From a virus (Duplodnaviria; Heunggongvirae; Uroviricota; Caudoviricetes), in the IMG/VR virus record IMGVR_UViG_3300039366_000282, positions 1 to 18,260 of that record: DNA of 18,260 bases. One strand, given 5' to 3'. How positions within the stretch are numbered: the stretch's first letter is position 1; every line of letters begins with the position of its first letter. The notes beneath the pieces were generated by a model. It was not told the DNA's origin and searched no databases. It saw nothing but the letters and a program-made list of their open reading frames with translations. Below are positions 1-16,197 of this stretch, in pieces. Position numbers and translations under genes: made by a program.

Positions 1-2631
1 TACAGCGGTATCTGGGACGGAACGTTTAAGCCAGCATACAGCAACAACATGGCCTGGTGTCTGTGGGATATGCTGACCCACCCGCGCTACGGCATGGGTA
101 AACGTCTTGGTGCGGCGGATGTGGACAAATGGGCGCTGTATGTCATCGGCCAGAATTGCGACCAGTCGGTGCCGGACGGTTTTGGTGGCACGGAGCCGCG
201 CATTTCCTGTAATGCCTACCTGACCACACAGCGTAAGGCGTGGGATGTTCTCAGTGATTTCTGCTCGGCGATGCGCTGTATGCCGGTATGGAACGGGCAG
301 ACGCTGACGTTCGTGCAGGACCGACCGTCGGATAAGGTGTGGACCTATAACCGCAGTAATGTGGTGATGCCGGATGATGGCGCGCCGTTCCGCTACAGCT
401 TCAGCGCCCTGAAGGACCGCCATAATGCCGTTGAGGTGAACTGGATTGACCCGGATAACGGCTGGGAGACGGCGACAGAGCTTGTGGAGGACACGCAGGC
501 CATTGCCCGTTACTGTCGTAACGTCACGAAGATGGATGCCTTTGGCTGTACCAGCCGGGGGCAGGCACACCGCGCCGGGCTGTGGCTGATTAAAACGGAG
601 CTACTGGAAACGCAGACCGTGGACTTCAGCGTGGGTGCAGAAGGGCTTCGCCATGTACCGGGGGATGTCATTGAAATCTGTGATGATGACTATGCGGGGA
701 TCAGCATCGGCGGGCGCGTGCTGGCGGTGAACAGCCAGACGCGGACACTGACGCTCGACCGTGAAATCACGCTGCCATCCTCCGGTACCACGCTGATAAG
801 CCTGGTTGACGGAAGTGGTAATCCGGTCAGCGTGGAGGTTCAGTCCGTCACCGACGGACTTAAGGTGAAAGTGAATCGGGTTCCTGACGGCGTTGCAGAA
901 TACAGTGTGTGGGGGCTGAAGTTGCCGACGTTGCGTCAGCGCCTGTTCCGCTGTGTGAGTATCCGTGAGAACGATGACGGCACGTATGCCATCACTGCCG
1001 TGCAGCATGTACCGGAAAAAGAAGCCATCGTGGATAACGGGGCGCACTTTGACGGCGACCAGAGCGGCACGGTGAATGGTGTCACGCCGCCAGCGGTGCA
1101 GCACCTGACCGCCGAAGTCACCGCAGACAGCGGGGAATACCAGGTGCTGGCGCGCTGGGATACGCCGAAGGTGGTGAAGGGCGTGAGCTTCCTGCTTCGC
1201 CTGACCGTGGCAGCGGATGACGGCAGTGAGCGGCTGGTCAGCACGGCCAGGACGACGGAAAACACATACCGCTTCAGGCAGCTGGCGCTGGGAAACTACA
1301 GGCTGACAGTCCGGGCGGCAAATGCGTGGGGACAGCAGGGCGATCCGGCATCGGTATCGTTCCGGATTGCCGCACCGGCAGCACCGTCGCGGATTGAGCT
1401 GACGCCGGGCTATTTTCAGATAACCGCCACGCCGCATCTTGCCGTTTATGACCCGACGGTACAGTTTGAGTTCTGGTTCTCGGAAAAGCGGGTTGCTGAT
1501 ATCAGACAGGTTGAAACCACAGCCCGCTATCTTGGCACGGCGCTGTACTGGATAGCCGCCAGTACCAATATCAAACCGGGTCGTGATTATTACTTTTATA
1601 TCCGCAGTGTGAACACCGTTGGCAAATCGGCATTCGTGGAGGCTGTCGGTCGGGCGAGCGATGATGCGGAAGGTTACCTGGATTTTTTCAAAGGCCAGAT
1701 AACCGAATCCCATCTCGGCAAGGAGCTGCTGGAAAAAGTCGAGCTGACGGAGGATAACGCCAGCAGACTGGAGGAGTTTTCGAAAGAGTGGAAAGACGCC
1801 AACGATAAATGGAATGCCATGTGGGGCGTCAAAATTGAGCAGACCGAAGACGGCAGGCATTATGTCGCGGGGCTTGGCCTCAGCATGGAGGATACGGAGG
1901 AAGGCAAACTGAGCCAGTTCCTGGTTGCCGCTAACCGTATCGCGTTTATTGATCCGTCTAATGGCAACACAAGACCAATGTTTGTTGGTCAGGGCGATCA
2001 GATATTCATGAACGACGTGTTCCTGAAACGCCTGACGGCTCCGACCATTACCAGCGGCGGTAATCCTCCGGCATTTTCCCTGACACCGGACGGGCGGCTG
2101 ACGGCGAAAAATGCCGATATCAGCGGTAACGTGAATGCGAACTCCGGGACGCTCAACAACGTCACGATTAACGAGAACTGTCGGGTTCTGGGAAAATTGT
2201 CCGCCAACCAGATTGAAGGCGATCTCGTTAAAACAGTGGGCAAAGCTTTCCCCCGGGACTCCCGTGCACCGGAGCGGTGGCCATCAGGGACCATTACCGT
2301 CAGGATTTATGACGATCAGCCGTTTGACCGGCAGATTGTTATTCCGGCGGTGGCATTCAGCGGCGCTAAACATGAGAGAGAGCATACTGATATTTACTCC
2401 TCATGCCGTCTGATAGTGCGGAAAAACGGTGCTGAAATTTATAACCGTACCGCGCTGGATAATACGCTGATTTACAGTGGCGTTATTGATATGCCTGCCG
2501 GTCACGGTCACATGACGCTGGAGTTTTCGGTGTCAGCATGGCTGGTAAATGACTGGTATCCCACTGCGAGCATCAGCGATTTGCTGGTTGTGGTGATGAA
2601 GAAAGCCACTGCAGGCATCACTATTAGCTGA
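1..2631 (+). CDS. J: Tail tip / host-specificity protein J, C-terminal ~877 aa (5' end lies upstream of the window)
   Basis: Frame 1 is open from nt 1 with no stop before the first Met at 49; the translated product matches the C-terminal two thirds of phage lambda J as recalled from memory; stop TGA at 2629-2631; gene order J-lom-stf follows. Confidence 0.9.
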
Positions 2632-2698: not shown

Positions 2699-3298
2699 AT
2701 GCGTAAATTATGTGCTGTTATTCTGTCCGCAGTAGTCTGGCTGGTTGCCGCTGGTACGCCAGCGAGCGCAGCAGAGCATCAGTCCACACTAAGCGCCGGG
2801 TATCTTCAGACCCATACTGATATGCCAGGCAGCGATGACCTGAAGGGCATTAATGTGAAATACCGTTATGAATTTACGGACACGCTGGGGCTGGTGACGT
2901 CATTCAGTTATGCCAATGCCAAAGATGAGCAAAAAACGCATTACAGCGATACCCGCTGGCATGAAGATTCAGTGCGTAACCGCTGGTTCAGCATGATGGC
3001 GGGGCCATCTGTACGCGTGAATGAATGGTTCAGTGCTTATGCGATGGCGGGTATGGCTTACAGCCGTGTGTCGACCTTCTCCGGGGATTATCTCCGCGTA
3101 ACTGACAACAAGGGGAAAACGCACGATGTGCTGACCGGAAGTGATGACGGTCGCCACAGCAACACGTCTCTGGCGTGGGGGGCTGGCGTGCAGTTTAACC
3201 CGACCGAATCCGTGGCCATTGACCTTGCTTATGAAGGTTCCGGCAGTGGTGACTGGCGCACTGACGGTTTCATCGTGGGTGTCGGTTATAAATTCTGA
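2699..3298 (+). CDS. lom: Lom outer-membrane protein (Ail/Lom family beta-barrel)
   Basis: 199-aa ORF with N-terminal signal peptide (MRKLCAVILSAVVWLVAAGTPASAA), C-terminal ...GVGYKF typical of OMP barrels; matches lambda Lom from memory; RBS GAGAGG 7 nt upstream of ATG; position immediately downstream of J as in lambda. Confidence 0.85.
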   Translation: MRKLCAVILSAVVWLVAAGTPASAAEHQSTLSAGYLQTHTDMPGSDDLKGINVKYRYEFTDTLGLVTSFSYANAKDEQKTHYSDTRWHEDSVRNRWFSMMAGPSVRVNEWFSAYAMAGMAYSRVSTFSGDYLRVTDNKGKTHDVLTGSDDGRHSNTSLAWGAGVQFNPTESVAIDLAYEGSGSGDWRTDGFIVGVGYKF

Positions 3299-3351: not shown

Positions 3352-3362
3352 GTGGAGTGGAT

Positions 3363-5738
3363 ATGGCAGCAGTAAAAATCTCAGGTGTGCTGAAAGATGG
3401 TGCGGGAAAACCAATACAGAACTGCACTATTCAACTGAAGGCAAAGCGTAACAGCACCACGGTACTGGTGAACACGGTGGCCTCTGAAAATCCGGATGAA
3501 GCCGGGCGTTACAGCATGGATGTTGAGTATGGCCAGTACAGCGTTATCCTGCTTGTTGAAGGTTTTCCGCCTTCACATGCCGGAACCATTACCGTCTATG
3601 AAGGTTCCAGACCAGGTACGCTGAATGATTTTCTCGGTGCCATGACGGAAGATGATGTCATGCCGGAGGCATTGCGTCGTTTTGAGGAAATGGTGGAAGA
3701 AGCGGCACGCAACGCCGAAGCCGCCTCTCAGAGCGCAGCGGCGGCAAAGAAATCCGAAACTGCAGCGGCATCATCGAAGAACGCGGCGAAAACCTCAGAA
3801 ACGAATGCAGCTAATAGTGCACAGGCGGCAGCGACCTCACAGACTGCATCAGAAAACTCCGCGACAGCAGCCAAAAAATCAGAAACCAACGCGAAAAATA
3901 GCGAGACAGCCGCAAAGACGAGCGAAACCAACGCAAAGTCCAGCCAGACGGCAGCGAAAACCAGCGAAACGAATGCCAAAGCCAGTGAAACTGCGGCGAA
4001 AAGCAGTCAGGATGCAGCAGCCGAAAGCGAGAGCGCGGCAGCCGGTTCTGCGACTTCAGCTGCTGGATCAGCAACTGCTGCGGCTAACAGTCAGAAAGCA
4101 GCGAAGACGAGTGAAACTAACGCAAAGTCCAGCCAGACGGCAGCGAAGACCAGCGAAACGAATGCCAAAGCCAGCGAAACTGCGGCGAAAAGCAGTCAGG
4201 ATGCAGCAGCCGAAAGCGAGAGTGCTGCAGCTGGTTCTGCAAGCGCGGCTGCTGCTTCTGCCACTGCATCAGCTAACAGTCAAAAAGCAGCAAAAACCAG
4301 TGAAACCAACGCAAAGGTGAGCGAAACAGCGGCTGCGAACTCAGCGAAAGCATCGGCAGCAAGCCAGACGGCAGCTAAAGCAAGCGAAGATGCAGCCAGA
4401 GAGTACGCAAGCCAGGCTGCGGAGCCGTATAAATATGTCTTACAGCCGCTGCCTGATGTGTGGATACCATTTAACGATTCGCTGGATATGATTACGGGCT
4501 TTTCGCCGTCATATAAAAAGATTGTTATTGGTGATGATGAAATAACGATGCCTGGCGACAAGGTTGTTAAGTTTAAACGCGCATCGAAAGCAACCTATAT
4601 TAATAAATCTGGTGTGCTGACAGAGGCTGCCATTGACGAGCCACGGTTTGAACGTGATGGCCTGCTTATTGAGGGGCAAAGAACGAACTACATGCTCAAT
4701 TCGGAAAGCCCTGCCAGTTGGGGGCGATCGTCAAATATGGATGTTCCCGAAACCGGGACGGATAGTTTTGGTTTTACCTATGGAAAGTTTGTCTGTAACG
4801 ATTCTCTGATTGGGCAAACCTCAGCCATTAATATGGCATCAATTGCTGCAACAAAGTCAGTTGATGTCTCAGGCGATAATAAATACGTGACAACCTCATG
4901 TCGTTTTAAAACAGAACTGCAGGTAAGGTTGCGTATCCGATTTGATAAATATGACGGTAGCGCAACAACTTTTCTTGGTGATGTGTATATTGATACACAA
5001 ACGCTTGAAATTAATATGACAGGCGGCGCTGCCTCAAGGATTACAGCGAGAGTCAGAAAGGACGAAGTTATCGGATGGATTTTTGCAGAGGCAACAATTC
5101 AGGCAATTGATGGGGAGTTAAAAATAGGTTCTCAGATACAGTATTCTCCTAAGCAGGGCGGGGCAACCGTATCTGGTGACTATATTTATCTGGCCACCCC
5201 ACAAGTAGAAAATGGGCCTTGTGTATCATCTTTTATTATATCAGGAACGACGGCGGCGACCCGCGCAAGCGATATAGTCACAGTTCCCATTAAGAATAAT
5301 CTTTATAATCTTCCTTTTACGGTTCTTTGTGAGGTACATAAGAACTGGTATAAAACGCCAAATGCAGCACCGCGTGTTTTTGATACCGGCGGTCATCAAA
5401 CCGGAGCGGCTATTATTCTTGGCTTCGGTTCTTCAGCAGATTACGACGGATTTCCTTATTGCGATATTGGTGGGTCTAACAGACGGATAAACGAAAATGC
5501 ATCACTTGAAAAAATGGTTATGGGGATGCGTGTAAAGTCTGATCAGTCTACATGCGCAGTAAGTAACGGGCGTATATCCAGCGAAACAAAAACCACATGG
5601 TCCTGTATTCAGAACACCGCAATTATCCGTATTGGAGGCCAGACTACAGCCGGGTTACGTCATTTATTTGGTCATGTAAGGAATTTCAGAATATGGCACA
5701 AGGCATTGACTGATGCTCAGGTGGGGGAGTCAATCTAA
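3363..5738 (+). CDS. stf: Side tail fibre protein: lambda Stf-like N-terminus, heptad-repeat shaft, divergent AT-rich C-terminal domain
   Basis: N-terminus MAAVKISGVLKDGAGKPIQNCTIQLKAKRNSTTV... matches lambda Stf from memory; ATG at 3363 preferred over track GTG 3357 (GGAG 5 nt upstream); long Ala/Ser/Thr/Lys heptad region (KTSETNA/KSSQTAA...); C-terminal ~430 aa encoded by visibly more AT-rich DNA, ending in a LamG-like motif (..VRNFRIWHKALTDAQV..). Confidence 0.8.
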   Translation: MAAVKISGVLKDGAGKPIQNCTIQLKAKRNSTTVLVNTVASENPDEAGRYSMDVEYGQYSVILLVEGFPPSHAGTITVYEGSRPGTLNDFLGAMTEDDVMPEALRRFEEMVEEAARNAEAASQSAAAAKKSETAAASSKNAAKTSETNAANSAQAAATSQTASENSATAAKKSETNAKNSETAAKTSETNAKSSQTAAKTSETNAKASETAAKSSQDAAAESESAAAGSATSAAGSATAAANSQKAAKTSETNAKSSQTAAKTSETNAKASETAAKSSQDAAAESESAAAGSASAAAASATASANSQKAAKTSETNAKVSETAAANSAKASAASQTAAKASEDAAREYASQAAEPYKYVLQPLPDVWIPFNDSLDMITGFSPSYKKIVIGDDEITMPGDKVVKFKRASKATYINKSGVLTEAAIDEPRFERDGLLIEGQRTNYMLNSESPASWGRSSNMDVPETGTDSFGFTYGKFVCNDSLIGQTSAINMASIAATKSVDVSGDNKYVTTSCRFKTELQVRLRIRFDKYDGSATTFLGDVYIDTQTLEINMTGGAASRITARVRKDEVIGWIFAEATIQAIDGELKIGSQIQYSPKQGGATVSGDYIYLATPQVENGPCVSSFIISGTTAATRASDIVTVPIKNNLYNLPFTVLCEVHKNWYKTPNAAPRVFDTGGHQTGAAIILGFGSSADYDGFPYCDIGGSNRRINENASLEKMVMGMRVKSDQSTCAVSNGRISSETKTTWSCIQNTAIIRIGGQTTAGLRHLFGHVRNFRIWHKALTDAQVGESI
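3906..4283 (+). repeat. 189-bp (63-codon) near-identical in-frame tandem duplication inside the tail-fibre shaft
   Basis: acgcaaagtccagccagacggcagcgaa... occurs at 3931 and again at 4120 (period 189 bp) with only a few substitutions; partial further units flank it. Confidence 0.85.
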
Positions 5739-6019
5739 TGAAAGATTTAACACTCAAATTTCCCGACAGGGCCGACTTTTCGGCCTTTATGGAGAGCATT
5801 GGCTATTATGATGACGAGTTGATGCAGGATGATATTCTTATTGACGTGATAGGTAACGTGTACAAAGAAACCGGAGAACTGACTGAAGATGGCGAACCGG
5901 TATGTGTTAAGGAAGACGGATATTTTGTAAACGTGCGCATCATTAATGATTCGCAAATATCGTCATTATTCGATGAATACGTGGTTGCTGTTGAGCATCA
6001 ACTTCGTGGCTGGATGTGA
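5738..6019 (+). CDS. Hypothetical 93-aa acidic protein, translationally coupled to the tail-fibre gene
   Basis: ATG overlaps the stf stop (TAATG at 5736-5740); GGGGGAG 8 nt upstream; no family recognised. Confidence 0.5.
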   Translation: MKDLTLKFPDRADFSAFMESIGYYDDELMQDDILIDVIGNVYKETGELTEDGEPVCVKEDGYFVNVRIINDSQISSLFDEYVVAVEHQLRGWM

Positions 6020-6028
6020 GGAAGAAAA

Positions 6029-7069
6029 ATGGCTACATCGACAGTAATTCCTGATGACATCAAAACGCTAAAATCCGACGTTAGCAAATTAAAAAACGAT
6101 CAAGGAAGCTACGCAACAAAATTATATGTAGACAGCAAAGATGAAATCGTTGGTGACTGGTCTGCTTCATGGTATCAGCAGGTATTGCCAACTAGCGGAG
6201 CTATATTTGGGAGAAAACTCCGCTCAACTCACAGGACGGCAGGTGTTGAGGATGCGTATTGCGAACTATACCTCAAAAAATGGATAGACAGTCCAGGTAA
6301 CGCAATGGCGCGCCTTAACCTGAACGATAACGGGACAAACATTTGCTGGGACTTTACCAACCTTTATGGCGGTACGATGATTTTTCCCGGTGACAGCGGA
6401 TACCTCAAAATGGGTAACTGCCTTATGTCATACAGCAAGCGTGGAAGTAACGCGCTTATTAAATTTGATTACACCGACACATTACAGATCAAATATGCCA
6501 ATCATGGGTCAACCATGACATTAAACACACAGGGAACCGCTTATGCTGGTGTTACTGCTCAATTGTGGGGCAACACCAGCCGTCCTGTTGTTTATGAAGT
6601 CGGTGTTGATGGTGGCGCTTATATGTTCTATGCGCAGAAAAATACCGATAACACCTATATGTTAAGCGTTAATGGTGCATGTCATGCCACCGCATTTAAC
6701 CAGCATTCCGACCGGGATCTGAAAGACAACATTCAGGTGATCGATAATGCAACCGACCGCATCCGTAAAATGAACGGCTATACATACACGCTTAAAGAAA
6801 ACGGTATGCCCTATGCTGGTGTCATTGCACAGGAAGCTCTGGAAGCAATCCCAGAAGTTGTAGGTTCCGCAATGAAATATCAGGACGGTGCAAGCGGATC
6901 GGAAGGTGAAGAAGGTGAACGTTATTACACAGTAGATTATTCTGGTGTTACTGGCTTGCTTGTTCAGGTAGCCAGAGAGTCAGACGACAGAATAACAGCA
7001 CTGGAAGAAGAAAACGCAGAATTAAGACAAAGATTATCTGCAATTGAGGCGGCGCTTGCGTCTAAATAA
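6029..7069 (+). CDS. Tail fibre/tailspike-like protein with C-terminal intramolecular chaperone (peptidase S74-type) domain
   Basis: RBS GAGGAAG before ATG; C-terminal region contains ..NQHSDRDLKDNIQVIDNATDRIRKMNGYTYTLKENG..YAGVIAQEALEAIPEVV.. followed by a coiled-coil tail (ALEEENAELRQRLSAIEAA), matching the SD-x-R-LK-x-NI self-cleaving chaperone signature of phage fibres as recalled. Confidence 0.65.
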   Translation: MATSTVIPDDIKTLKSDVSKLKNDQGSYATKLYVDSKDEIVGDWSASWYQQVLPTSGAIFGRKLRSTHRTAGVEDAYCELYLKKWIDSPGNAMARLNLNDNGTNICWDFTNLYGGTMIFPGDSGYLKMGNCLMSYSKRGSNALIKFDYTDTLQIKYANHGSTMTLNTQGTAYAGVTAQLWGNTSRPVVYEVGVDGGAYMFYAQKNTDNTYMLSVNGACHATAFNQHSDRDLKDNIQVIDNATDRIRKMNGYTYTLKENGMPYAGVIAQEALEAIPEVVGSAMKYQDGASGSEGEEGERYYTVDYSGVTGLLVQVARESDDRITALEEENAELRQRLSAIEAALASK

Positions 7070-7098: not shown

Positions 7099-7111
7099 GG
7101 GTAGGATGAAA

Positions 7112-7399: not shown

Positions 7400-7747
7400 A
7401 TATAAAAAGTAAAAAGCCGCAGTAACTTGTCATGATAGGATACTGCGGCTGGCTGGTTAACTTTCGATAGTGCGAGTATTGAATGATTTCCAGCCGTTAC
7501 CGATTTTATATAACTGCAGTGGAATTATTCAACACACAGGCAAAACGGAATAAGCTGAGAAAAAAGCGTGCTTACCCAATCTGGGGTAAATCACGTCTGA
7601 ATGACACCTGAAAACAGGTGGTGGCCTCAAGAAGGCTTGGAATATTCTTCTTTAATGTTATGTAATTTATTGATTTTTCGTGTACGATTTTAAGACATTT
7701 ATTCCAAGAAAAATTTTTAACTCTTTGATTTTTCGACTCTGTATCAT

Positions 7748-7809
7748 CGGTCTCGAAAACCGGAGTAGGGGCAACTCTACCGGGGGTTCAAATCCCCCTC
7801 TCTCCGCCA
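7748..7809 (+). tRNA. Partial tRNA-Ser(CGA) (serU-type), 3' 62 nt only, without 5' acceptor/D-arm; att-core duplicate at the prophage boundary
   Basis: Anticodon stem-loop CCGGT-CTCGAAA-ACCGG (anticodon CGA), long variable arm, T-arm GGGGG-TTCAAAT-CCCCC, 3' acceptor strand TCTCTCC + G + CCA; no matching 5' strand (GGAGAGA...) upstream; matches E. coli serU 3' portion from memory. Confidence 0.75.
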
Positions 7810-8087
7810 ATCATTCAACAAAATCAATCACTTACAAAGCATTTTTGATTTTGTCGTGCATAAATCCCTGCATTAAAATTCCTTTCTCTCGCTCAATTTT
7901 TCTTACTACTGATGCTGTTTTTTACCATTTTGCCGCGCGTCGGGCATCCACTTTTATGCTCTCGAGTTCACACTCTTAACAACAACTTAGCCATTCCCCC
8001 GTCTCTGATGACAAAACAGTTGAACTTCAATTGTTCCAAACGGATCCTGTGAAGATATATCAAAGGAAATGGATTGTTGGAGGATGG

Positions 8088-8924
8088 ATGAAAAGAAGTG
8101 AAATCAGGAAAGCACTGGAAGCATGGTTTGATGTGGAACGCTATGAGGCGATAGAGAAACTCACCTTACAGCAGTTTTATGTTGAGGTTGAGCGGCGCAT
8201 CTTGGCTTACAGAATGTTGTTGAGCCGGAACACCATACCTACCTTTAACCGATTAATGCTGGATGATTACCGCAACAAGATCCTCAGCGGTGAAATCTTT
8301 TTCAGTGGTGATACTGAGACCATTGGATATGAGCTTGCCAGAACCTATGCGGTAAACCCTACGACAAGAAGCCACGCGCAATTTTATGCGAAAACTCTGT
8401 CATTAACCGAAGCCACGCCTGAACTCTCTGGGTTAAGCCAGTCTGAATTTCTGTCCGAATATCTGAAAGAGACATCCCTTAATAATCTTTCACGCATTAC
8501 TGTCGATATTCATCTGGAAGAAGCATCAACCGAAGAGATCATTGAACATCTGAAAGTGCTGATCCCTCAATGGAAGAGGCAGCTTAAGATGACGTCTCCA
8601 GCTCCAAGAGAGTATCGTTTCGGCAAAAGCACGTTCAGAAAAATTATTGAATATCGTCTTATCCCGATGATGGACCTGATCTTCTGGGGAGAAGATAACG
8701 GCATTAAAATCCCGCTTTCACTGATTTCCTCGTTGCTTCATGAGGACAGCGACAACGATCGTGATGAAGGAATGCTCAAGGCAACAGATTACCCGTTAGC
8801 AATGGCTTTTCTGACGGATGCGAGCTATCTGAAATCGCTTGAAGATTACATGATGGAAAACAACCACTTGAAAGACTCCCCTGTTGAAAAGCATGTAGAA
8901 GACGACAGGAATAAGAAAAAATAA
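8088..8924 (+). CDS. Hypothetical protein (278 aa from ATG 8088)
   Basis: Long ORF; track start 8031 is TTG; GGAGGA lies just upstream of ATG 8088; no family recognised. Confidence 0.5.
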   Translation: MKRSEIRKALEAWFDVERYEAIEKLTLQQFYVEVERRILAYRMLLSRNTIPTFNRLMLDDYRNKILSGEIFFSGDTETIGYELARTYAVNPTTRSHAQFYAKTLSLTEATPELSGLSQSEFLSEYLKETSLNNLSRITVDIHLEEASTEEIIEHLKVLIPQWKRQLKMTSPAPREYRFGKSTFRKIIEYRLIPMMDLIFWGEDNGIKIPLSLISSLLHEDSDNDRDEGMLKATDYPLAMAFLTDASYLKSLEDYMMENNHLKDSPVEKHVEDDRNKKK

Positions 8925-9140
8925 GCCAAGTAAAAAGGGTTACGTTCGCTCCGTGCGAACGTGATCGCATCCAGTGTCAACCGTTATCTTTCCATCCGTG
9001 CCCCTTCGAATTTTTCAAAAAAAACTTATTTGAACGTCCCTAAATTGTCATAAGCAAAATCGCTATCATTGTTCACGTCGAAACAACATAGAGAAAAGCG
9101 AAATCTCATAGAGATTACTTACAATAATAGAGGACAGACA

Positions 9141-9359
9141 ATGAAAGAAAATAATGAAACCAGCGTAAAACGATTTATCCGCGTTCCTGATGTTTTAAAT
9201 CGAGTGGGATTTAGTCGCACGACTTTATATGAACGTATTAAGGAAGGAAACTTTCCAGACAGAGTAAAAATAGGGCCAAGATGTGTCGCCTTTGTCGAAA
9301 GTGAGATTGATGAATGGATTGAAGCGGCTATTCGAAACTCACGCCAGAACGCAGCATAA
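9141..9359 (+). CDS. AlpA-family phage/island transcriptional regulator (small HTH)
   Basis: 72-aa product ..FIRVPDVLNRVGFSRTTLYERIKEGNFPDRVKIGPRCVAFVESEIDEWIE.. matches the AlpA/prophage CP4-57 regulator pattern from memory; RBS AGAGGA before ATG 9141. Confidence 0.7.
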   Translation: MKENNETSVKRFIRVPDVLNRVGFSRTTLYERIKEGNFPDRVKIGPRCVAFVESEIDEWIEAAIRNSRQNAA

Positions 9360-9440
9360 AAACAGAAACAAGATCTCGTGTCGAACAGATATCTGTTCGC
9401 TCAGGGCATCTTATTATCCTAAACAATAATGGAGAAAAAT

Positions 9441-9731
9441 ATGAAGATAGAGCTTATTACGACAAAACAGTTTATTGAACAAGCCGAATGTTATTTCAGG
9501 CGCTATATGGACGGATTGCGGAGGAATGCACCAGATGATTTTTATTATTTTCTCAACAATAAATACAATATGAATGACATTATGGAAAGTATCATTAAAA
9601 AAACGAGATATCATTTTTACGATGACACAGAAGAAAACCAAAGGAATCGGATTTATGGAGAAGTAAGCCACTGTAAGGTAAAACAACACCTTCGTCAGCT
9701 TTGGATTATCTATAAGTGTGTATACCGCTAA
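9441..9731 (+). CDS. Hypothetical small protein (96 aa)
   Basis: ORF with GGAGA 5 nt upstream of ATG 9441 (track start 9429 also possible); AT-rich; no recognised family. Confidence 0.4.
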   Translation: MKIELITTKQFIEQAECYFRRYMDGLRRNAPDDFYYFLNNKYNMNDIMESIIKKTRYHFYDDTEENQRNRIYGEVSHCKVKQHLRQLWIIYKCVYR

Positions 9732-9783
9732 TATTTATACAAATATTTTGCTATTCCAATATTAAACTAAAGAGGAAATAAAA

Positions 9784-10080
9784 ATGAATACATTTAAAAA
9801 TAAAACTACTAAAATCTTTTATGTTGTGTCCTTGCATATCTATGCGGAGCTTTTTAACTCAAAGGATAAAACGACCAGTAATATGATTATAACGCATGTA
9901 ATGGATCATGAGTTTGTTTGTAAGCTAATCGATCTGGCGATGAGAAATGCTGAAAAGCATCTTCTGAAAAAAGCATGGAAAAAGAACGCGGCTGAAAAAC
10001 TATCTGAGGTGGATTTTAAAGAGGTTAGGCAGGCATTAGCCAAAATGCACTACACTGTTCTGGCGGAATCAATATGTTGA
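9784..10080 (+). CDS. Hypothetical small protein (98 aa)
   Basis: ORF preceded by strong RBS AAAGAGGAAATAAAA-ATG; no recognised family. Confidence 0.4.
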   Translation: MNTFKNKTTKIFYVVSLHIYAELFNSKDKTTSNMIITHVMDHEFVCKLIDLAMRNAEKHLLKKAWKKNAAEKLSEVDFKEVRQALAKMHYTVLAESIC

Positions 10081-10152
10081 TATGTTCTGGTGTCTATCTG
10101 CCCCTTCTTGGGGCTGATAACAAATATTATTTTTCTATCCAAGGAGCAAAAA

Positions 10153-10395
10153 ATGACTGATGAATTTCATGTGATGTATATGTATAAAAAAATCCAAGCG
10201 GAAGCCGTAACTACTGACATCAAAACACTTGAACAGCTTTTGAAAAAGTTCAGGAGCGTTGTCAACGAACGTCGTGAAGAATACTATCAGGAGATTGGTG
10301 AGAAAAAAGCGCATAAGTTGAAAATGAAAAGATTACAAAGAATGCTTGAGAAAATGGCGTGTGACCGAGTCTCGCCAGAAGATCTCATTGACTGA
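10153..10395 (+). CDS. Hypothetical small charged/helical protein (80 aa)
   Basis: RBS AAGGAG 6 nt upstream of ATG 10153 (track ORF starts earlier at 10090 without an RBS); product lysine/glutamate-rich. Confidence 0.4.
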   Translation: MTDEFHVMYMYKKIQAEAVTTDIKTLEQLLKKFRSVVNERREEYYQEIGEKKAHKLKMKRLQRMLEKMACDRVSPEDLID

Positions 10396-10443
10396 TAAGT
10401 GTTCTGTATAATAACTTATCTATATAAAAACATGGAGGTGGTT

Positions 10444-10833
10444 ATGGGCTGGGAGCTTCACATAGTAAGAACGGAACATTGGTTCGATAGCGCAAGTGTT
10501 CCAATCAGTAGTGAAGAATGGCTCCAGCTTGTTAATGATGATAAAGAACTATCCATAGATAACAAGAACGGTGATTTTTTCGCCATATGGAGTGGTCAAA
10601 GTGAACTCGATGAACCTTGGCTTGACTGGAGTGATGGAAGAATTTCAACAAAACATCCTGACGAAGCCCTTTACTGTAAAATGTTGCAGATAGCTGAGAA
10701 GCTACATGCTGTAGTCGTTGATGAGGATGATCACAAATATTCGCTACCAAGTGACCTGATGAATCCTTCATGGGCGAATTCATCACTGACTGATAAAAAA
10801 CAAACTTTATGGAAAAGGTTGTTTTCAAAATAG
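10444..10833 (+). CDS. Hypothetical protein (129 aa, Trp/Asp-rich)
   Basis: RBS GGAGGTGG before ATG 10444 (MGWELHIVRTEHW...); track ORF starts at 10399. Confidence 0.45.
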   Translation: MGWELHIVRTEHWFDSASVPISSEEWLQLVNDDKELSIDNKNGDFFAIWSGQSELDEPWLDWSDGRISTKHPDEALYCKMLQIAEKLHAVVVDEDDHKYSLPSDLMNPSWANSSLTDKKQTLWKRLFSK

Positions 10834-11139
10834 TTTTGTCAAGTATTCAGGGAATAGCAATGGCACGCCGAATTGATCTTCATGAAATTGTTAACGCTCT
10901 CAACGGGAGCTTTGTTAGTCGAAACAACGACTTTAGAAGATACGGGGCTATTGGGCAGTTAAAATCATTGGCTATCTGTATTAGCTCAGACTTGATCTGG
11001 TGGTTTTCACTGGTAGCACACTATCAAATCTGACAGTCTGCTATGAGCGAGGAGCGGAAGTTAGTACCTCCGATGCTATAGCGCAGCGTTCTTAATTATG
11101 TAAAAATATTCTACCATTCAAGTAAAGTAAGTGAAAACA

Positions 11140-12057
11140 ATGGAATTTAAACTTGATCTAAAATCCAATGCTTTAGATAGTTTTAATGAAGCCATCAAAA
11201 AATTCCAGCAAGGAGAAAATGGAGATTATAAAGCTTTCAAGTTTGCTATACTACATTTGTCTCATTGTTTTGAGTTGACGTTGAAAATGTATATTCAAAC
11301 ATTAGACGAAAACTTGATTTTTTCAAAATGCTACAGAGCAGTAATAGAGCGTGCCAAAAGTGACAAAGTCAATCTTATTGAAGCTTTTTATAAAATGGAG
11401 GCTGAAGAATTCGACTTTGAAGAACTTATTAAAGGACATAAAAATCCTCATACTATTACTTTGGATCAAGCAATATCGATAGCTACACATGAAAAGTGTA
11501 GCATAACCTCAGTGGACTTAGTTGATAAAGAGTTACTAGATGATATCGCTTGGATGAAAGATCTTAGAAATTCAATTGAGCATTACGAATTCTCGTTTAC
11601 TATTAAATATGTTCGTCTGGCAATGGGGCGTTTGGTCAGAGGGTTGGCTGAGTTCTCTGATATATTTGGTTTATACGATCTAGATAAAGAAGTTTCTAAG
11701 GAAATATCTAATTCCTATAATATACTTTCTGACGAATATGAGCATAATGTTCATGAAGGTTATCTTGATGTAGCTGATGCTAGAAAAGCAGCATTTCTTG
11801 GGGTTAGACCAAAGTTTTTTGAGTTAGTTAATTGGAAAGAATATATCTGCGATTACTGTGGTCATGAGACAATGATTCAAAATAACGATTCTACTTCAGG
11901 ATATCGTTGTACGTATTGCGGTGCCGAAGACTCAGGCTCAATTGAAGTCACATGTGATGTTTGTGGTGCTGAATGGCCTGAAGAGGAAATGAGTTCTTGG
12001 CTTGGGGAGGGGACTAACACTTGTCCTGACTGTAGAGATATTAGCAACAAACCATGA
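11140..12057 (+). CDS. HEPN-like (R-x4-H) domain protein with C-terminal four-CxxC zinc-ribbon region; candidate abortive-infection/RNase effector
   Basis: 305 aa from ATG 11140 (track GTG 11131 alternative); helical N-terminal region ending in ..WMKDLRNSIEHYEF.. (R-N-x3-H at nt 11566-11583); C-terminus carries CDYC, CTYC, CDVC, CPDC pairs; RBS weak. Confidence 0.55.
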   Translation: MEFKLDLKSNALDSFNEAIKKFQQGENGDYKAFKFAILHLSHCFELTLKMYIQTLDENLIFSKCYRAVIERAKSDKVNLIEAFYKMEAEEFDFEELIKGHKNPHTITLDQAISIATHEKCSITSVDLVDKELLDDIAWMKDLRNSIEHYEFSFTIKYVRLAMGRLVRGLAEFSDIFGLYDLDKEVSKEISNSYNILSDEYEHNVHEGYLDVADARKAAFLGVRPKFFELVNWKEYICDYCGHETMIQNNDSTSGYRCTYCGAEDSGSIEVTCDVCGAEWPEEEMSSWLGEGTNTCPDCRDISNKP

Positions 12058-12326
12058 CTAAGATTAATCCTTGATTGAAGATGCATTCTTGTCCGCCTCT
12101 CATGTTTTATAATGTATAATGCTTCTGGCATTATAGCGTGAGAGGCGGAAGATATTGTTAACCGAATTGGCAAGCCTAATTTATAACATTATTGCTAATA
12201 TGGAGGAATAGATTTCTGTTCATCCGCTTACATGGAGTATATACTGTAAACCTTACATCCTTTGAATAAACGGGATGGGAGGCGTCCATCCTGTTTAAGA
12301 TCTCCATCATAAAGATTAAAAATTTC

Positions 12327-12851
12327 TTATTCTTCTGAAGTAAGCATCTTCTCCTGATGGGGGTGATACTTATATGCATAATTAAAGAGGGTCAGATCTA
12401 GTTCAAACGTTTCTCGCATACCATCCATCGTTACGGACGTATTCAGTAATCCACGACGGGCCAGAGATTCTACACCCGGTTCAGGATCATCAAGCCTATT
12501 CATTTGTCCCCATGTCATAACAGAACCACCATGCGTCACAAAGTGCATGACTACTTCTTTTTCTCTTCCAGTCAGAGAATTATAAAGCGTTGCCAGTCGT
12601 TTTTCTGCAACTGCCTCTCCCTTGCGGGTAATAATTCGCAGATATAATCCTCCCGCAATAATCTTTACAACCGGAAAAATAATAACAAAAGAAAACAGAG
12701 TCAGTACATAATCGCGAAGAATAAGATAACAGGTAACTCCTGCGATTCCGGAGACAAATATTGCGATGTTAATGCTGAAGTCTTTCTCCGAATAAACACG
12801 ATCAAACATTTTTTCAAGAAATTCTGTCACGATTTCATTCCTTGTTAACAC
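12327..12851 (-). CDS. Hypothetical membrane protein (two predicted TM helices near N-terminus, soluble C-terminal domain)
   Basis: Minus-strand ORF; hydrophobic segments FSINIAIFVSGIAGVTCYLIL and LTLFSFVIIFPVVKIIAGGLYL; start ambiguous (GTG 12851 or ATG 12809, neither with a clear SD). Confidence 0.45.
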   Translation of the reverse strand: MLTRNEIVTEFLEKMFDRVYSEKDFSINIAIFVSGIAGVTCYLILRDYVLTLFSFVIIFPVVKIIAGGLYLRIITRKGEAVAEKRLATLYNSLTGREKEVVMHFVTHGGSVMTWGQMNRLDDPEPGVESLARRGLLNTSVTMDGMRETFELDLTLFNYAYKYHPHQEKMLTSEE

Positions 12852-13283
12852 TAAAGATGCTCGAGTGGGTATGAATATACCGCAATAGTGCGGGAGGATT
12901 TCATTAGTGTCCCATCAAAATCTGGCTTGAACTGGCTATTGAGTCGCTAATCATTATAAATTTTAGCTGTCAATACTACCATAATAAATAGCAGCATTCT
13001 CAAGAGTTGTGGCGAACGCAACAAAACTCTCCCCAACAACCCGCTTGTAAAGATGCTTTTATACTTCTAACGTCCGCTCTTGGCACGGAGTTGCCTGTCA
13101 AATTAGGTTTAGATCTGTGCGATAGCTGTGTCAGGTCAAATCTGAGCTAATAGAGCTATCGATACCGGCGTCACTTCGATGAGGTTTTCTCTCATAGCCG
13201 AGAGCGACACCCTCTCTTCGCACGTAGGATTTTCTTTGGGAGAGAACAAAAACCGCCAAATTTGGTTGACGGCTTTATTGTGA

Positions 13284-13688
13284 TCAGAGCGCGAAGTCTT
13301 CCAGCGTTTTACCAGCTTCGATAGCAGCAGCGATCGCTTTAGGAGTACGGCCTTGACCTGTCCAAGTCTGCTCATTACCATTTTCATCTGTATATTTGTA
13401 TTTAGCAGGACGAGGAGCACGAGTTGATTTGGCTTTAGGCTGGGATGAACTAACAGCAGCAAGGAGTTCTGCCGGATCAATGCCATCTTCTAACAGTTTC
13501 TGGCGGAAGGCTTCCAGTTTAGCCTGACGTTCTTCTTGTTCTTTACGGGCTGAATTTTCTTCCTCACGGCGATCTTCAACGACAGCAGAGAGCTTTTCCA
13601 GCATCTCTTCCAGAGTTGTCAGATCTGTTTCACGAGCATGTGCGCGAAGTGTACGAATATTGTTCAGTGCCTTGAGAGCTTCACTCAT
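13284..13688 (-). CDS. H-NS family nucleoid-associated protein (island-encoded H-NS/StpA paralog)
   Basis: 134-aa product [28 protein letters not shown].. with C-terminal DNA-binding motif [12 protein letters not shown] and ..[12 protein letters not shown]..; matches E. coli H-NS/StpA from memory. Confidence 0.85.
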
Positions 13689-13844
13689 AGTATGTCATCC
13701 GGTGTTTTAAAATGGGCGATTAATAAAAATAATGCTTACGGTGATGTTGGAAAAATCAAAAAAACAGTCAGTAAATAATATAGTAAACATTATCGTTTAA
13801 GCAATCTAATACATCTCATTTCACACGAATAACATAGGAGTGCT

Positions 13845-14324
13845 TTAAAGAGACATTTTCCTGCGCTTCTGGCTTGATGGCTCGAACTCTGACGAGATGC
13901 GAGATAGCTGGTCAAGACTGTATTCAATTGAACGCTGGAACTCAACAGCGGCTTCTGTGCGTTGTTTTATGACCAAGGCTACTATTTCTTCATCACTCTT
14001 TTCTGAAATAGCCTTACGGTATAACACGCGTTCGTTAAATAAATCGAGATTTCCTGATGATTTGGCTGATGTGTTAGCTTTTGAACTGCTGATAGGATTT
14101 AGCTCATCAATAAAGTATTCAATAAGCGATTCTCTCTTTTTATCCAGCCTGCGAAGTTCGGTATGTGCGGACTTAAATTTCTGAGCTTTTATCAATGGAA
14201 TATCATCAGAACGCAGTTTGCGATATTCATTTCTGTATTCTTCTATCGGAATATGGTTTTTTAGTTCTTTGACTGTATTTACGTATTCGATTAAATCACT
14301 GTTGTCTGTTTTTACTTTTCTCAT
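13845..14324 (-). CDS. Hypothetical protein (159 aa, charged/helical)
   Basis: Minus-strand ORF with GAGG 9 nt upstream of ATG 14324; no recognised family. Confidence 0.45.
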   Translation of the reverse strand: MRKVKTDNSDLIEYVNTVKELKNHIPIEEYRNEYRKLRSDDIPLIKAQKFKSAHTELRRLDKKRESLIEYFIDELNPISSSKANTSAKSSGNLDLFNERVLYRKAISEKSDEEIVALVIKQRTEAAVEFQRSIEYSLDQLSRISSEFEPSSQKRRKMSL

Positions 14325-14600
14325 AAGAAATACCTCGTAGATAAAATAGTTGATATATTTATATTACGAGATATGGTGCAGGTGTCAAATTTATGGGGCT
14401 GGGCGCTATTTTTGTATTTTACTTTTAGCTACTGTTTCTTTTGAGAAGAACCGAGAGTTAAATGTGCCGTTCTTAGTCAGTATCTTAGCGTCCACTAATA
14501 ATTTTAACCGTTCTTCATCGGTTCTCTTAGCCGCTAATTTTTTCACCTTTTTTGTCAGATCTTCAATATCTATTATTTACATCCTTATCTTTTAAGTTGT

Positions 14601-15401
14601 TTAAACAATCTGAGGTGTTTTATACTGTTCAAAAATAAGATTTCCTGAATATGTATAAATTTCTATTTTTCCTACTTTACCATCAGTGCCTTTTATCGAG
14701 AAACGAATTAATCTTTCATTATAATATTTTTCTAACAAGTCTGGTCGTTCAGTAAAATATCTTGATTTTGTTGAGCGATCTTTCAGATAGTCGCAGCTTG
14801 AACAAACCTGCTTTTTGAAATCCTTCTCAGATAAACCACTTTCTTTTATTTTTAAAGAAATAAAAGCCTTTAAAGGTCGTTCATATTCATCTCTTTCTTT
14901 TGCTTTGCGTATTTGTTCTTCTTTCTTGCGCTGTTCTTCAATACGGTAAAGTCTGCCTTGTTCTTCCTGCGCTCGTATTATATCCTCTTGAATCATTTTA
15001 CTGATGATTGAGGCAGGAACAACACTGATACCTTCAGACCACCCCTGATAAGGATTATTGTTTTGTATATTTCGGACTGTAGCAGATATTCTGTCTATAT
15101 CCAGTTCTTTATCAAAGGAAACAATGCGTTGTCTGTTTTCTTTTGATATGAGCTTAGCCGTGTTTACCGGGGATTCCAGACCCTTTAATTTGAATGTAGC
15201 TACGGCACTGTTGCGACTTCTATAATATAATGCTTGTTTCTTATCTCCAATATAACATTCAAGGTAAGAGAAAATCTTAAACTCCTGAATGCCAAATGTT
15301 TCCTCAAGCATGGTCATCTGCTCAGCCAATATATTTAGTATATCACTCTTGGATAGTTTTTCGTGGAGCTTAATCTCAAGCGAACCGGGTAGTTTTTTCA
15401 T
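14601..15401 (-). CDS. Hypothetical protein (266 aa), second gene of minus-strand operon
   Basis: Minus-strand ORF; AAGGA 7 nt upstream of ATG 15401; 27-bp gap to the upstream gene; central lysine/glutamate-rich helical segment; no recognised family. Confidence 0.5.
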   Translation of the reverse strand: MKKLPGSLEIKLHEKLSKSDILNILAEQMTMLEETFGIQEFKIFSYLECYIGDKKQALYYRSRNSAVATFKLKGLESPVNTAKLISKENRQRIVSFDKELDIDRISATVRNIQNNNPYQGWSEGISVVPASIISKMIQEDIIRAQEEQGRLYRIEEQRKKEEQIRKAKERDEYERPLKAFISLKIKESGLSEKDFKKQVCSSCDYLKDRSTKSRYFTERPDLLEKYYNERLIRFSIKGTDGKVGKIEIYTYSGNLIFEQYKTPQIV

Positions 15402-15428
15402 TGTTATTTCCTTGTTGTTGTTATTTTA

Positions 15429-16163
15429 TCAGGATACTTTCTGCATATGAGAGTCGGCGTCAACAGCGTTTCTTCTTGCTTCCTCATTTTCCTTTGTTCT
15501 TTTATATACTTTTCGTGGTTTATCAATATGTATGCTGTTATTTGTATTAGGAACAGCATTATTCTTTTTCTTCTTACTGAAAACAAATGCGTCAGTATAG
15601 ATTTCTTTGGTCTCAGTTTCTAAGGATAGGGTTCTTCTTTCACTTTTTGACATAGCTGAATAACTTTCTGGATACTGTTCTATTTCTGCGCAAAGATTGC
15701 GAGCGTTGCTCAACTGTTCTTTACGTTTCTGATCCAGTTGGTGACTCATTCCTTTAGCGAAAATGTTAGAGTTGATATAGAGATGACCATGATGCTCGAC
15801 GAGTATTCCTTTCTGTCTGAGTTTTTTAAAAATGTTAGACATATTACCGGAAGCGATGTTCAGTGCTTTACACAGCGATGATTGCGAAAGATTGATCAGA
15901 TTTCCAAACTCCATATACTCCAGAATATAGGTTAATACACGGAATTCATTCTTGGATATGTCAAGATCAGAGAAGACACGAAAGTTGGAAGTAAAAGCAA
16001 ATACATAAGGTTGTGAAAACGATATAGCTTTATCTTCCTCAGAAGAAATAACTGTCGTTGATTTTATTTCTTTGTTTTGTAGCAAGCGTCTTGCGATATC
16101 AATCTTTTGTTCTGTAGTTAATGATTCAAATAAGTGTAATAGATCAGCATCTGGTGTATTCAT
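15429..16163 (-). CDS. Winged-helix DNA-binding protein, RepL-like (putative replication initiator or regulator)
   Basis: 244 aa from ATG 16163 (track start 16226 would lie upstream of the predicted promoter); segment ..ISKNEFRVLTYILEYMEFGNLINLSQSSLCKALNIASGNMSNIFKKLRQKGILVEHHGHLYINSNIFAKG.. resembles RepL-type wHTH proteins as recalled; repeated palindromes upstream. Confidence 0.5.
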   Translation of the reverse strand: MNTPDADLLHLFESLTTEQKIDIARRLLQNKEIKSTTVISSEEDKAISFSQPYVFAFTSNFRVFSDLDISKNEFRVLTYILEYMEFGNLINLSQSSLCKALNIASGNMSNIFKKLRQKGILVEHHGHLYINSNIFAKGMSHQLDQKRKEQLSNARNLCAEIEQYPESYSAMSKSERRTLSLETETKEIYTDAFVFSKKKKNNAVPNTNNSIHIDKPRKVYKRTKENEEARRNAVDADSHMQKVS

Positions 16164-16197
16164 ATTATTCTCTCTTATTATTTTTGTTATATATATT

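What the first reader, a model, noticed from the sequence alone, without database searches (positions are those of the whole stretch)
7670..7859. Prophage right junction: tRNA-Ser(CGA) 3' fragment flanked by three TTGATTTT(T)CG repeats
Only the 3' 62 nt of a serU-type tRNA-Ser are present (7748-7809); the 5' acceptor strand and D-arm are missing. This is the signature of an att-core duplicate left when a phage integrates into a tRNA gene, which places the prophage end here and predicts the intact tRNA and integrase at the far left end, outside this window. The motif TTGATTTTTCG(T/A) occurs at 7670 and 7725 on the phage side and as TTGATTTTGTCG at 7846 on the island side; these may be integrase arm-type sites or a target-site preference. 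Because island DNA starts directly after the core, the locus looks like a tandem or composite integration hotspot.
Basis: partly seen in the sequence, partly recalled or inferred. Interest (0 to 1): 0.55.

Follow-up and report, generated by a model that had tools for sequence, protein, structure and literature searches.

The report
Prophage right end in serU tRNA
This is the ordinary right-hand junction (attR) of a lambda-like prophage that inserted into the E. coli serU tRNA-Ser gene, just upstream of a genomic island already sitting there; the repeated TTGATTTT motif is most likely a pair of IHF bending sites, not integrase arm sites.

Summary
Window 7748-7809 is exactly the 3' 62 nt of E. 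coli serU tRNA-Ser(CGA), and no 5' half exists anywhere in the window. Lambdoid tail genes (J, lom, stf) lie to the left and the serU genomic island to the right. Prophage-free strains match the window at 100.0% from base 7748 onward and have an intact serU there. Viral contigs carry the contiguous attP: this P arm, the 62 nt, the P' arm and int.

The TTGATTTTTCG repeats are real and conserved, but they match the IHF consensus (WATCAANNNNTTR on the minus strand). Three phage lineages have IHF-like matches at the same positions. The better arm-type candidates are five copies of CTTGGAATA: two in the window at 7636 and 7700, and three next to int. This word changes with the integrase lineage while its positions stay fixed. 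The third motif (7845) belongs to the island and is also present in prophage-free strains.

About 950 of 5426 complete E. coli genomes carry this P arm, and 45 have the same tandem junction. serU is a published prophage and island hotspot. The finding is ordinary and already known.

The parts
1..2631 (+). C-terminal part of the lambdoid tail tip protein J (the gene runs off the left edge of the window)
   Evidence: Pfam hits Phage-tail_3, Ig_J, Phage_Tail_Tip and Ig_GpJ_C. Annotated as gpJ in the homologous locus.
2699..3298 (+). Lom/Ail outer-membrane protein gene of the prophage
   Evidence: Pfam Ail_Lom, E=1.5e-127.
3357..7069 (+). Side tail fibre genes (stf-like 3357-5738, small ORF 5738-6019, tail-fibre domain protein 6029-7069). 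These are the last structural genes before attR, as in lambda.
   Evidence: Pfam phage_tail_N and Peptidase_S74. RefSeq names in GN02100.
7415..7508 (+). Hairpin (7415-7450) followed by a ~68-nt segment found near the right end of many lambdoid phages. It is phage DNA distal to the att arm.
   Evidence: Inverted repeat I3. Matches to HK97, phiP27, Stx2 phages and others over query positions 1-68.
7633..7747 (+). P arm of the phage attachment site (the phage side of attR)
   Evidence: In diverged serU prophages, homology starts at about 7633. The arm is contiguous with the core, P' arm and int in viral contigs L033, L049, L056 and L066. It is present in 949 of 5426 complete E. coli genomes.
7636..7646 (+). 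P1, candidate integrase arm-type site CTTGGAATATT
   Evidence: Only two CTTGGAATA in the window against 0.14 expected. Invariant in 6 P-arm variants. It is the top repeated 8-mer of the reconstructed attP, with 5 copies at fixed positions.
7663..7675 (-). H1, candidate IHF site AATCAATAAATTA.
   Evidence: Perfect WATCAANNNNTTR match. A match with <=1 mismatch sits at the same position and strand in Chris1, KpF5 and the O55 prophage.
7698..7708 (-). P2, candidate arm-type site in inverted orientation (TTTATTCCAAG, the reverse complement of CTTGGAATAAA)
   Evidence: It forms a 20-nt inverted repeat with P1 (I4).
7718..7730 (-). H2, candidate IHF site AATCAAAGAGTTA.
   Evidence: Perfect consensus match. 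Across variants the N positions change while the consensus positions are kept.
7748..7809 (+). The 3' 62 nt of serU tRNA-Ser(CGA), i.e. the att core duplicate at attR. The anticodon loop is 7752-7758. The strand exchange is mapped to 7748-7766.
   Evidence: Identity to K-12 serU. All attL and attP copies of this phage type carry G and C where the window has A7767 and T7778, which is the host version.
7810..8087 (+). Left end of the serU genomic island (non-coding).
   Evidence: Identical in prophage-free strains..
8088..18260 (+). Body of the serU island: DUF6387 protein (8088-8924), H-NS-like protein (13284-13688, minus strand), a gene annotated RepL in identical genomes, and others. It continues beyond the window.
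   Evidence: Pfam DUF6387 and Histone_HNS. RefSeq annotation of the identical DNA in strain 3-72.

Best explanation
The region is the attR junction of a lambda-like prophage that integrated by tyrosine-integrase site-specific recombination into serU, the tRNA-Ser(CGA) gene. The phage attP carries its own copy of the last 62 nt of the tRNA. Recombination in or near the anticodon stem-loop rebuilds an intact, chimeric serU at the left end, next to int. It displaces the host's original 3' 62 nt to the right end, which is what the window shows at 7748-7809. The 115 bp to the left (7633-7747) are the phage P arm. Its layout resembles lambda: arm-type Int site P1 (7636-7646), IHF site H1 (7663-7675), inverted arm-type site P2 (7698-7708) and IHF site H2 (7718-7730), followed by the core. 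The matching P' arm (an IHF-like site right after CCA, then three tandem CTTGGAATA sites overlapping the 3' end of int) lies outside the window at the other prophage end. The DNA to the right of CCA is the left end of the serU genomic island. That island uses a different integrase and a 14-nt core at the 3' tip of the same tRNA, so the locus is a tandem array: serU, prophage, 62-nt fragment, island, 14-nt repeat, native flank. What is shown: the junction, the empty site, contiguous attP forms, the marker that bounds the crossover, and the conservation and covariation of the motifs. What is inferred: which proteins bind which motif, and the exact cleavage positions.
For: (1) The fragment equals serU positions 29-90, and no 5' half exists in the window.
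(2) In GN02100, the closest complete genome with the prophage, the order is: mtfA, intact serU, tyrosine integrase (frameshifted), a DUF4224 protein, a ~44 kb lambdoid prophage, J-lom-stf, the 62-nt fragment, the island, the island integrase, CCCTCTCTCCGCCA, the native flank and zinT.
(3) Empty site: strains 3-72, Es_ST80_L1, 8178 and others are 100.0% identical to window 7748-18260. They have intact serU directly followed by the island.
(4) Contiguous attP (a window-like P arm, the 62 nt, the P' arm and int) occurs in viral contigs L033, L049, L056-58 and L066. It also occurs in the complete phages Chris1, KpF5 and P7641, whose integrases are 57-60% identical to the E. coli one.
(5) Crossover marker: every attL and attP copy of the E. 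coli type has G..C in the variable arm. The window fragment and K-12 have A..T.
(6) Arm-type sites: an unbiased k-mer scan finds the most repeated 8-mer at the same five positions (-172, -108 inverted, +47, +57, +70 from CCA) in all lineages. The word is lineage-specific: CTTGGAAT, TTGGTATA or TGAGAAAA. Only 0-3 of 2000 shuffles reach the observed count.
(7) IHF: there are 6 perfect consensus matches in the window against 1.46 expected, and 3 of them lie within 172 bp at the junction. Matches with <=1 mismatch recur at -146, -91 and +3 on the same strands across lineages.
(8) Invariant columns are enriched in the four predicted sites: 37 of 48 versus 24 of 67, Fisher p=1.3e-5.
(9) GenBank KU052038 (phage SerU-LTIIb) annotates the same 62-nt pseudo-tRNA-Ser at its attR.
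Against: The left end of this particular prophage is outside the window. No complete genome in the collection contains the whole window, so its intact serU and integrase are inferred from relatives. No binding or recombination experiment exists here. AT-rich DNA matches the IHF consensus easily, and in Klebsiella phages H2 (KpF5, P7641) and H1 (P7641) fall below the <=1-mismatch cut. The site boundaries used in the enrichment test were chosen after seeing the sequences, and the aligned P arms are related by descent. The integrase in GN02100 is frameshifted, so some of these prophages are fixed.
Confidence: 0.88

Rival explanations
1. The TTGATTTTTCG repeats are the integrase arm-type binding sites, or binding sites for the excisionase.
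For: There are two exact 11-nt direct copies on the phage side, 55 nt apart. Both are conserved among E. coli P-arm variants.
Against: No matching triplet exists in the P' arm next to int, and only a partial TGATTTTT at +36 is not conserved in other lineages. The conserved part is TAAnnnnTTGATTTT, which is the IHF consensus. IHF-like matches recur at these positions in lineages whose integrase N-terminal regions and arm words differ. A different word, CTTGGAATA, shows the 2+3 distribution and the lineage-specific covariation expected of arm-type sites. Lambda Xis sites are adjacent tandem repeats, not 55 nt apart (textbook knowledge).
Confidence: 0.08
2. The tRNA fragment is a decayed pseudogene or a deletion scar, and the island DNA to the right is cargo of the same prophage. 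On this reading the prophage does not end here.
For: The island is AT-rich mobile DNA directly abutting phage DNA. No integrase is visible in the window.
Against: The island follows an intact serU without any prophage in 340 complete genomes, and at 100% identity to the window in several. The same P arm plus 62 nt is followed by the native yodB flank in other strains. The fragment boundary is the same base in independent phages. The island has its own integrase and its own 14-nt direct repeat.
Confidence: 0.02
3. The elements arrived in the reverse order: the prophage integrated first, and the island later inserted into the 14-nt tip of the displaced 62-nt fragment rather than into the intact gene.
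For: The island's 14-nt core (CCCTCTCTCCGCCA) is present in both the intact serU and the fragment, so the structure alone does not fix the order.
Against: The identical island (100.0% over 10.5 kb) sits next to intact serU in prophage-free strains. Island-only genomes (340) far outnumber tandem ones (45). The prophages next to the island vary in their tail-fibre regions. Together these fit repeated, recent phage insertions into island-bearing strains.
Confidence: 0.1

Closest known systems
Lambdoid prophages integrated at serU in E. coli (phage SerU-LTIIb, GenBank KU052038; effector- and Stx-carrying prophages at serU in STEC)
   Same: Same target gene and same 62-nt displaced tRNA fragment. 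The P arm is the same (93.8% identical in SerU-LTIIb), and tail fibre genes come just before attR. serU is listed as a prophage and Stx-phage site in PMC8767318, PMC8065619 and PMC7067040.
   Different: In SerU-LTIIb and the STEC examples fetched here, the fragment is followed by the native yodB flank. In the window it is followed by the serU island. The tail-fibre module of the window's prophage is a mosaic not found whole in any complete genome searched.
Bacteriophage lambda attP (P1-H1-P2-X1X2F-H2-core-H'-P'1P'2P'3), and the tRNA-targeting relatives P22 (thrW) and HP1
   Same: There are two arm-type sites in the P arm and three tandem ones in the P' arm. IHF-consensus sites are interleaved (two in the P arm, one in the P' arm). 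The integrase is a tyrosine recombinase, and int lies next to the P' arm. The comparison with the lambda layout rests on textbook knowledge.
   Different: The core lies in a tRNA anticodon stem-loop, and attP carries 62 nt of tRNA, so the P' sites sit about 50 bp further from the crossover than in lambda. P2 is inverted relative to P1. No Xis or Fis sites were identified. The P' sites overlap the 3' end of the int coding sequence. None of this was tested biochemically.
serU island (PAI-CFT073-serU, PAI VII536; encodes Hfp/H-NSB, H-NST and TcpC)
   Same: The DNA right of 7809 is the left end of this island family. It inserts at the serU 3' tip and encodes DUF6387 and an H-NS-like protein, plus a gene annotated RepL in the identical DNA of strain 3-72 (PMC7545054, PMC7074111).
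   Different: The window's variant is only about 97% identical to the GN02100 tcpC-bearing version at its left end (the 1.6 kb compared, window 7000-8600). In the strain that matches the window exactly, it carries other cargo further on: a restriction endonuclease, DotA/TraY and a reverse transcriptase. tcpC itself is not within the window.

Membership tests
attR junction of a tRNA-integrating temperate phage | A 3' tRNA fragment identical to the target gene, with no 5' half | tested here: met
   62 of 62 nt identical to K-12 serU positions 29-90. No tRNA is called and no 5' half is found.
attR junction of a tRNA-integrating temperate phage | An intact copy of the tRNA plus an integrase at the other end of the element | tested here: inconclusive
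   Met in the closest complete genome GN02100 and in about 50 attL loci with the same integrase. The window's own left end is outside the data, and no genome in the collection holds the whole window.
attR junction of a tRNA-integrating temperate phage | An empty site exists, with homology breaking at the core | tested here: met
   100.0% identity from 7748 to 18260 in strains with intact serU and no prophage.
attR junction of a tRNA-integrating temperate phage | A contiguous attP (P arm, core, P' arm, int) exists in phage or viral genomes | tested here: met
   L033, L049, L056-58, L066, and the phages Chris1, KpF5 and P7641.
attR junction of a tRNA-integrating temperate phage | Excision and circularisation on induction | not testable with these tools
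   Needs PCR across attP and attB after induction. Contiguous attP contigs are only indirect support.
Lambda-type attP architecture (arm-type Int sites plus IHF sites) | A repeated arm-type word in both arms, distinct from the core, that covaries with the integrase | tested here: met
   Five copies at fixed positions in four attPs, with a lineage-specific word; 0-3 of 2000 shuffles reach the count. The integrase N-terminal regions diverge most.
Lambda-type attP architecture (arm-type Int sites plus IHF sites) | IHF consensus sites between the arm-type sites and the core | tested here: met
   Perfect matches at 7663-7675 and 7718-7730, with positional conservation across lineages. This is sequence evidence only.
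Lambda-type attP architecture (arm-type Int sites plus IHF sites) | Demonstrated protein binding and a requirement for recombination | not testable with these tools
   No biochemical data. No paper on this integrase's att site was found in the library searches.
serU genomic island family | Inserted at the 3' end of serU and flanked by a direct repeat of the tRNA tip, with its own integrase | tested here: met
   In GN02100 there is a 14-nt CCCTCTCTCCGCCA repeat and an integrase at the far end. The far end of the window's own island is outside the window.
serU genomic island family | Encodes the H-NS homologue Hfp/H-NSB (and TcpC in the UPEC versions) | tested here: inconclusive
   A full-length H-NS-like ORF lies at 13284-13688. 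tcpC is not in the window and is not annotated in the first 25 kb of the identical island in strain 3-72.

The most novel reading that the evidence does not exclude
Three kinds of DNA that can follow serU all carry a similar (A/T)TCAAnnACTTA element near the CCA: the native flank and the phage P' arms 3 nt after it, the island left end 13 nt after it. The phage-borne tRNA half also carries a compensated G-C pair in the variable arm. This might mean that elements targeting serU are selected to preserve something beyond the tRNA sequence itself, such as a 3'-processing or IHF-dependent expression signal. Lysogeny would then subtly re-tune the tRNA. Separately, vestigial copies of this P arm sit inside phages that use other integrases (the O26 Rac-site prophage; ev099 and mEp332). 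That might mean att arms move between phages as modules when integration specificity is swapped.
Probability: 0.12. Interest if true: 0.35.

Novelty: already known. Interest (0 to 1): 0.12.

Why it matters
It matters little beyond annotation. The result fixes the right boundary of a prophage at base 7809, with the strand exchange mapped to 7748-7766. It separates the prophage from the adjacent serU island. It also shows that the apparent "tRNA pseudogene" is a normal by-product of integration. The comparative map of the att site (P1-H1-P2-H2-core-H'-P'1-3) for the serU-specific integrase family is a useful, testable annotation. It could help prophage-boundary callers, and it corrects the assignment of the repeated motif.

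Tried and rejected
- ARAGORN and Rfam at gathering threshold found no RNA gene in the window. The permissive Rfam scan gave only tRNA-like partial hits.
- I looked for the source genome, but no complete E. coli genome holds more than 60% of the window in one place. The prophage's own left end therefore could not be inspected.
- The phage-database hits ev099, mEp332 and PhiR70_1 looked like free-phage attP. They turned out to be a fossil attR (P arm, 62 nt, then K-12 native flank) lying 2.4 kb from an integrase.
- The 'phage' records vB_EcoS-689R5 and 606R7 are prophage predictions that include host flanks, so they give attL, not attP.
- The O26 RM10386 hit, where the P arm stops inside the anticodon loop, first suggested a secondary-site crossover. 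Alignment showed a vestigial arm fused at a GAAA(A)CCG microhomology to a Rac-type right end.
- A k-mer scan of the reconstructed island att region found no convincing arm-type repeats. Only the 10-nt palindrome containing motif 3 stood out.
- The promoter and terminator scan around the junction was not above shuffle expectation.
- The 2016 paper describing the SerU-LTIIb prophage is not in the searchable library, so only its GenBank annotation is cited.

Full report
**Observation**

Window 7748-7809 on the + strand reads CGGTCTCGAAAACCGGAGTAGGGGCAACTCTACCGGGGGTTCAAATCCCCCTCTCTCCGCCA. It is identical to positions 29-90 of serU tRNA-Ser(CGA) of E. coli K-12. The base before it (T7747) differs from the tRNA (C). 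Identity therefore begins at the second base of the anticodon stem. The anticodon loop CTCGAAA is 7752-7758.

ARAGORN finds no tRNA in the window, and Rfam finds nothing at gathering threshold. A permissive Rfam scan gives only partial tRNA-like hits over the fragment. The 28-nt 5' half of serU is absent from the whole window even with 3 mismatches allowed.

TTGATTTTTCG occurs exactly at 7670 and 7725. The third copy is TTGATTTTGTCG and starts at 7845, not 7846. The window-wide count of the 11-mer is not significant on its own. The two exact copies are, however, the cores of an 18-nt direct repeat 55 nt apart.

**Surroundings**

To the left lie lambdoid tail genes: the J C-terminus, lom, an stf-type fibre, and a fibre protein with an S74 chaperone domain. 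To the right is AT-rich island DNA encoding a DUF6387 protein and an H-NS-like protein, with a gene annotated RepL in the identical DNA of strain 3-72.

The closest complete genome that has the junction is E. coli GN02100, 97.6% identical over 7000-8600. It shows the whole arrangement:
- mtfA;
- intact serU;
- a tyrosine integrase (frameshifted) and a DUF4224 protein;
- a ~44 kb lambdoid prophage ending in J-lom-stf;
- the 62-nt fragment;
- the island, here carrying tcpC, with its own integrase at the far end;
- the 14-nt repeat CCCTCTCTCCGCCA, the native flank and zinT.

ARAGORN calls the left-end gene as tRNA-Ser(CGA).

**Empty site and free form**

Several complete genomes (3-72, Es_ST80_L1, 8178, DEF10 and others) match the window at 100.0% identity from exactly base 7748 to 18260. 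In strain 3-72 that stretch begins inside an intact serU that follows mtfA, with the island directly after it and no prophage.

A scan of viral contigs with the integrase gave about 50 attL loci. It also gave several contigs in which a P arm like the window's, the 62 nt, the P' arm and int are contiguous: L033, L049, L056-58 and L066. This is the attP form.

Three complete phages carry the same 62 nt in the same arrangement: Citrobacter Chris1 and Klebsiella KpF5 and P7641. Their integrases are 57-60% identical to the E. coli one.

GenBank KU052038 (phage SerU-LTIIb) annotates the same 62-nt pseudo-tRNA-Ser at its right end, there followed by yodB.

**Where the crossover is**

Every attL and attP copy of the E. 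coli phage type has AGTGGGGGCAACTCCACC in the variable arm, a compensated G-C pair. K-12, the prophage-free strains and the window fragment have AGTAGGGGCAACTCTACC. The host version therefore ends up at attR and the phage version at attL. This places the strand exchange 5' of A7767, within 7748-7766: the anticodon stem-loop and the three bases after it. That agrees with the known preference of many tRNA-targeting integrases for the anticodon loop (my own knowledge; Williams 2002, not re-read here).

**The repeated motifs**

An unbiased k-mer scan of four attP sequences found that the most repeated 8-mer lies at the same five positions in every lineage. The positions, counted from the CCA, are about -172 (direct), -108 (inverted), +47, +57 and +70 (direct). 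The word differs by lineage:
- E. coli: CTTGGAAT
- Chris1: TTGGTATA
- Klebsiella phages: TGAGAAAA

Only 0-3 of 2000 shuffles reach the observed count. In the window the two P-arm copies are at 7636-7644 (+) and 7700-7708 (-). These are the only two CTTGGAATA in 18 kb, against 0.14 expected. The three P' copies overlap the 3' end of int. A 2+3 distribution that covaries with the integrase is what arm-type sites look like in lambda.

The window has 6 perfect matches against 1.46 expected, and three of them lie within 172 bp at the junction. Matches with at most one mismatch recur at -146, -91 and +3 on the same strands in E. coli variants and Chris1, and partly in the Klebsiella phages (KpF5 keeps -145 and +3, P7641 only +3).

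In an alignment of six E. coli P-arm variants the invariant blocks are:
- GCTTGGAATATTCT
- TGATTTTTC
- ATTTATTCCAA
- TAA....TTGATTTT

Invariant columns are enriched in the four predicted sites: 37 of 48 versus 24 of 67, Fisher p=1.3e-5. Two caveats apply. The site limits were set after inspection, and the sequences are related by descent.

The inferred layout is P1-H1-P2(inverted)-H2-core/tRNA-H'-P'1-P'2-P'3. This is a lambda-like design stretched on the P' side by the tRNA 3' half. Which protein binds where is inference only.

**The third motif and the island**

TTGATTTTGT (7845-7854) pairs with ACAAAATCAA (7818-7827) as a perfect 10-nt inverted repeat. It lies in DNA that is identical in prophage-free strains. 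It therefore belongs to the island's left arm and has no part in this phage's att site. A k-mer scan of the island's reconstructed att region showed no clear arm-type repeats, so its role is unresolved.

The island is the published serU island family: PAI-CFT073-serU and PAI VII536, encoding Hfp and H-NST (PMC7545054, PMC7074111). tcpC is not in the window. The exact-match island in strain 3-72 carries different distal cargo.

**How common it is**

Counts among 5426 complete E. coli genomes:

| Feature | Genomes |
|---|---|
| This P arm present | 949 |
| Intact serU directly followed by the island | 340 |
| P arm, fragment, island junction as in the window | 45 |

The literature lists serU as a site for lambdoid, effector-carrying and Stx prophages. 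It also records strains with both an integrative element and a prophage at serU (PMC8767318, PMC8065619, PMC7067040).

**Verdict**

The main interpretation is supported: a prophage attR in serU, in tandem with an island. The side suggestion about arm-type sites is replaced by a better-supported assignment, IHF-like sites, with CTTGGAATA as the arm-type word. Nothing here departs from known biology, so interest is low and the novelty class is 'already known'.

Noticed in passing
L004 (phage ev099) 2850-3520; L005 (mEp332); PhiR70_1 (H28): Three sequenced free lambdoid phages carry a fossil attR: the serU-type P arm, the 62-nt fragment, then at least 260 bp of K-12-type chromosomal flank. It lies 2.4 kb from their integrase, next to an AraC-type regulator and transposase remnants. 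This looks like bacterial DNA captured by imprecise excision and then kept.
   Followed up: partly
L017 1428-1800 and L019 (E. coli O26 RM10386, Rac/ttcA-site prophage): A prophage at the Rac site carries a vestigial copy of the serU-type P arm, near-identical (a few substitutions and two 1-nt indels) to window 7441-7758. It ends inside the anticodon loop (…GGTCTCGAAA|CCCGTAGCC…). It is fused at a GAAA(A)CCG microhomology to a second hairpin-plus-68-nt module and a Rac-type arm with GGGGCAAAA repeats.
   Followed up: partly
window 7415-7508: A hairpin (AGCCGCAGTA…TACTGCGGCT) is followed by a ~68-nt segment that is 95-100% conserved near the right ends of many lambdoid phages with different integrases (HK97, HK106, mEp460, phiP27, many Stx2 phages). 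Its function is unknown, and Rfam has no match.
   Followed up: no
L002 15846-15935; about 50 loci among L020-L082: Lysogens of this phage type express a chimeric serU in which a variable-arm A-U pair is replaced by G-C (a compensated double change carried by attP). A more distant integrase lineage (L093) keeps A-U.
   Followed up: partly
window 7810-7834; L002 15936-15950; L007 (K-12 flank); L010, L011: Near the CCA, the native flank (TATCAATGACTTA), the phage P' arms (ATTCAATCACTTA, ATTCAAACACTTA) and the island left end (AATCAATCACTTA) all carry a similar IHF-consensus-like element. It starts 3 nt after the CCA in the native flank and the phage arms, and 13 nt after it in the island. It is unclear why the unrelated elements and the host share it.
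   Followed up: no
L054 (IMGVR_UViG_2698536484_000010), reverse strand, upstream of the 62 nt: The E. coli-type P' arm and int are preceded by a different P arm, containing TGAGAAAA-like words, whose identity to the tRNA extends 4 nt further (GGACCGG…). This suggests two different serU prophages in tandem.
   Followed up: no
L066, reverse strand, P' arm: One attP variant has four rather than three tandem CTTGGAATATTTT repeats. Another (L071) has two. The copy number of the putative P' arm sites therefore varies.
   Followed up: no
window 7680-7979: A 99-aa GTG ORF spans the P arm, the tRNA fragment and the island DNA. It is an artefact of the junction, not a gene.
   Followed up: yes
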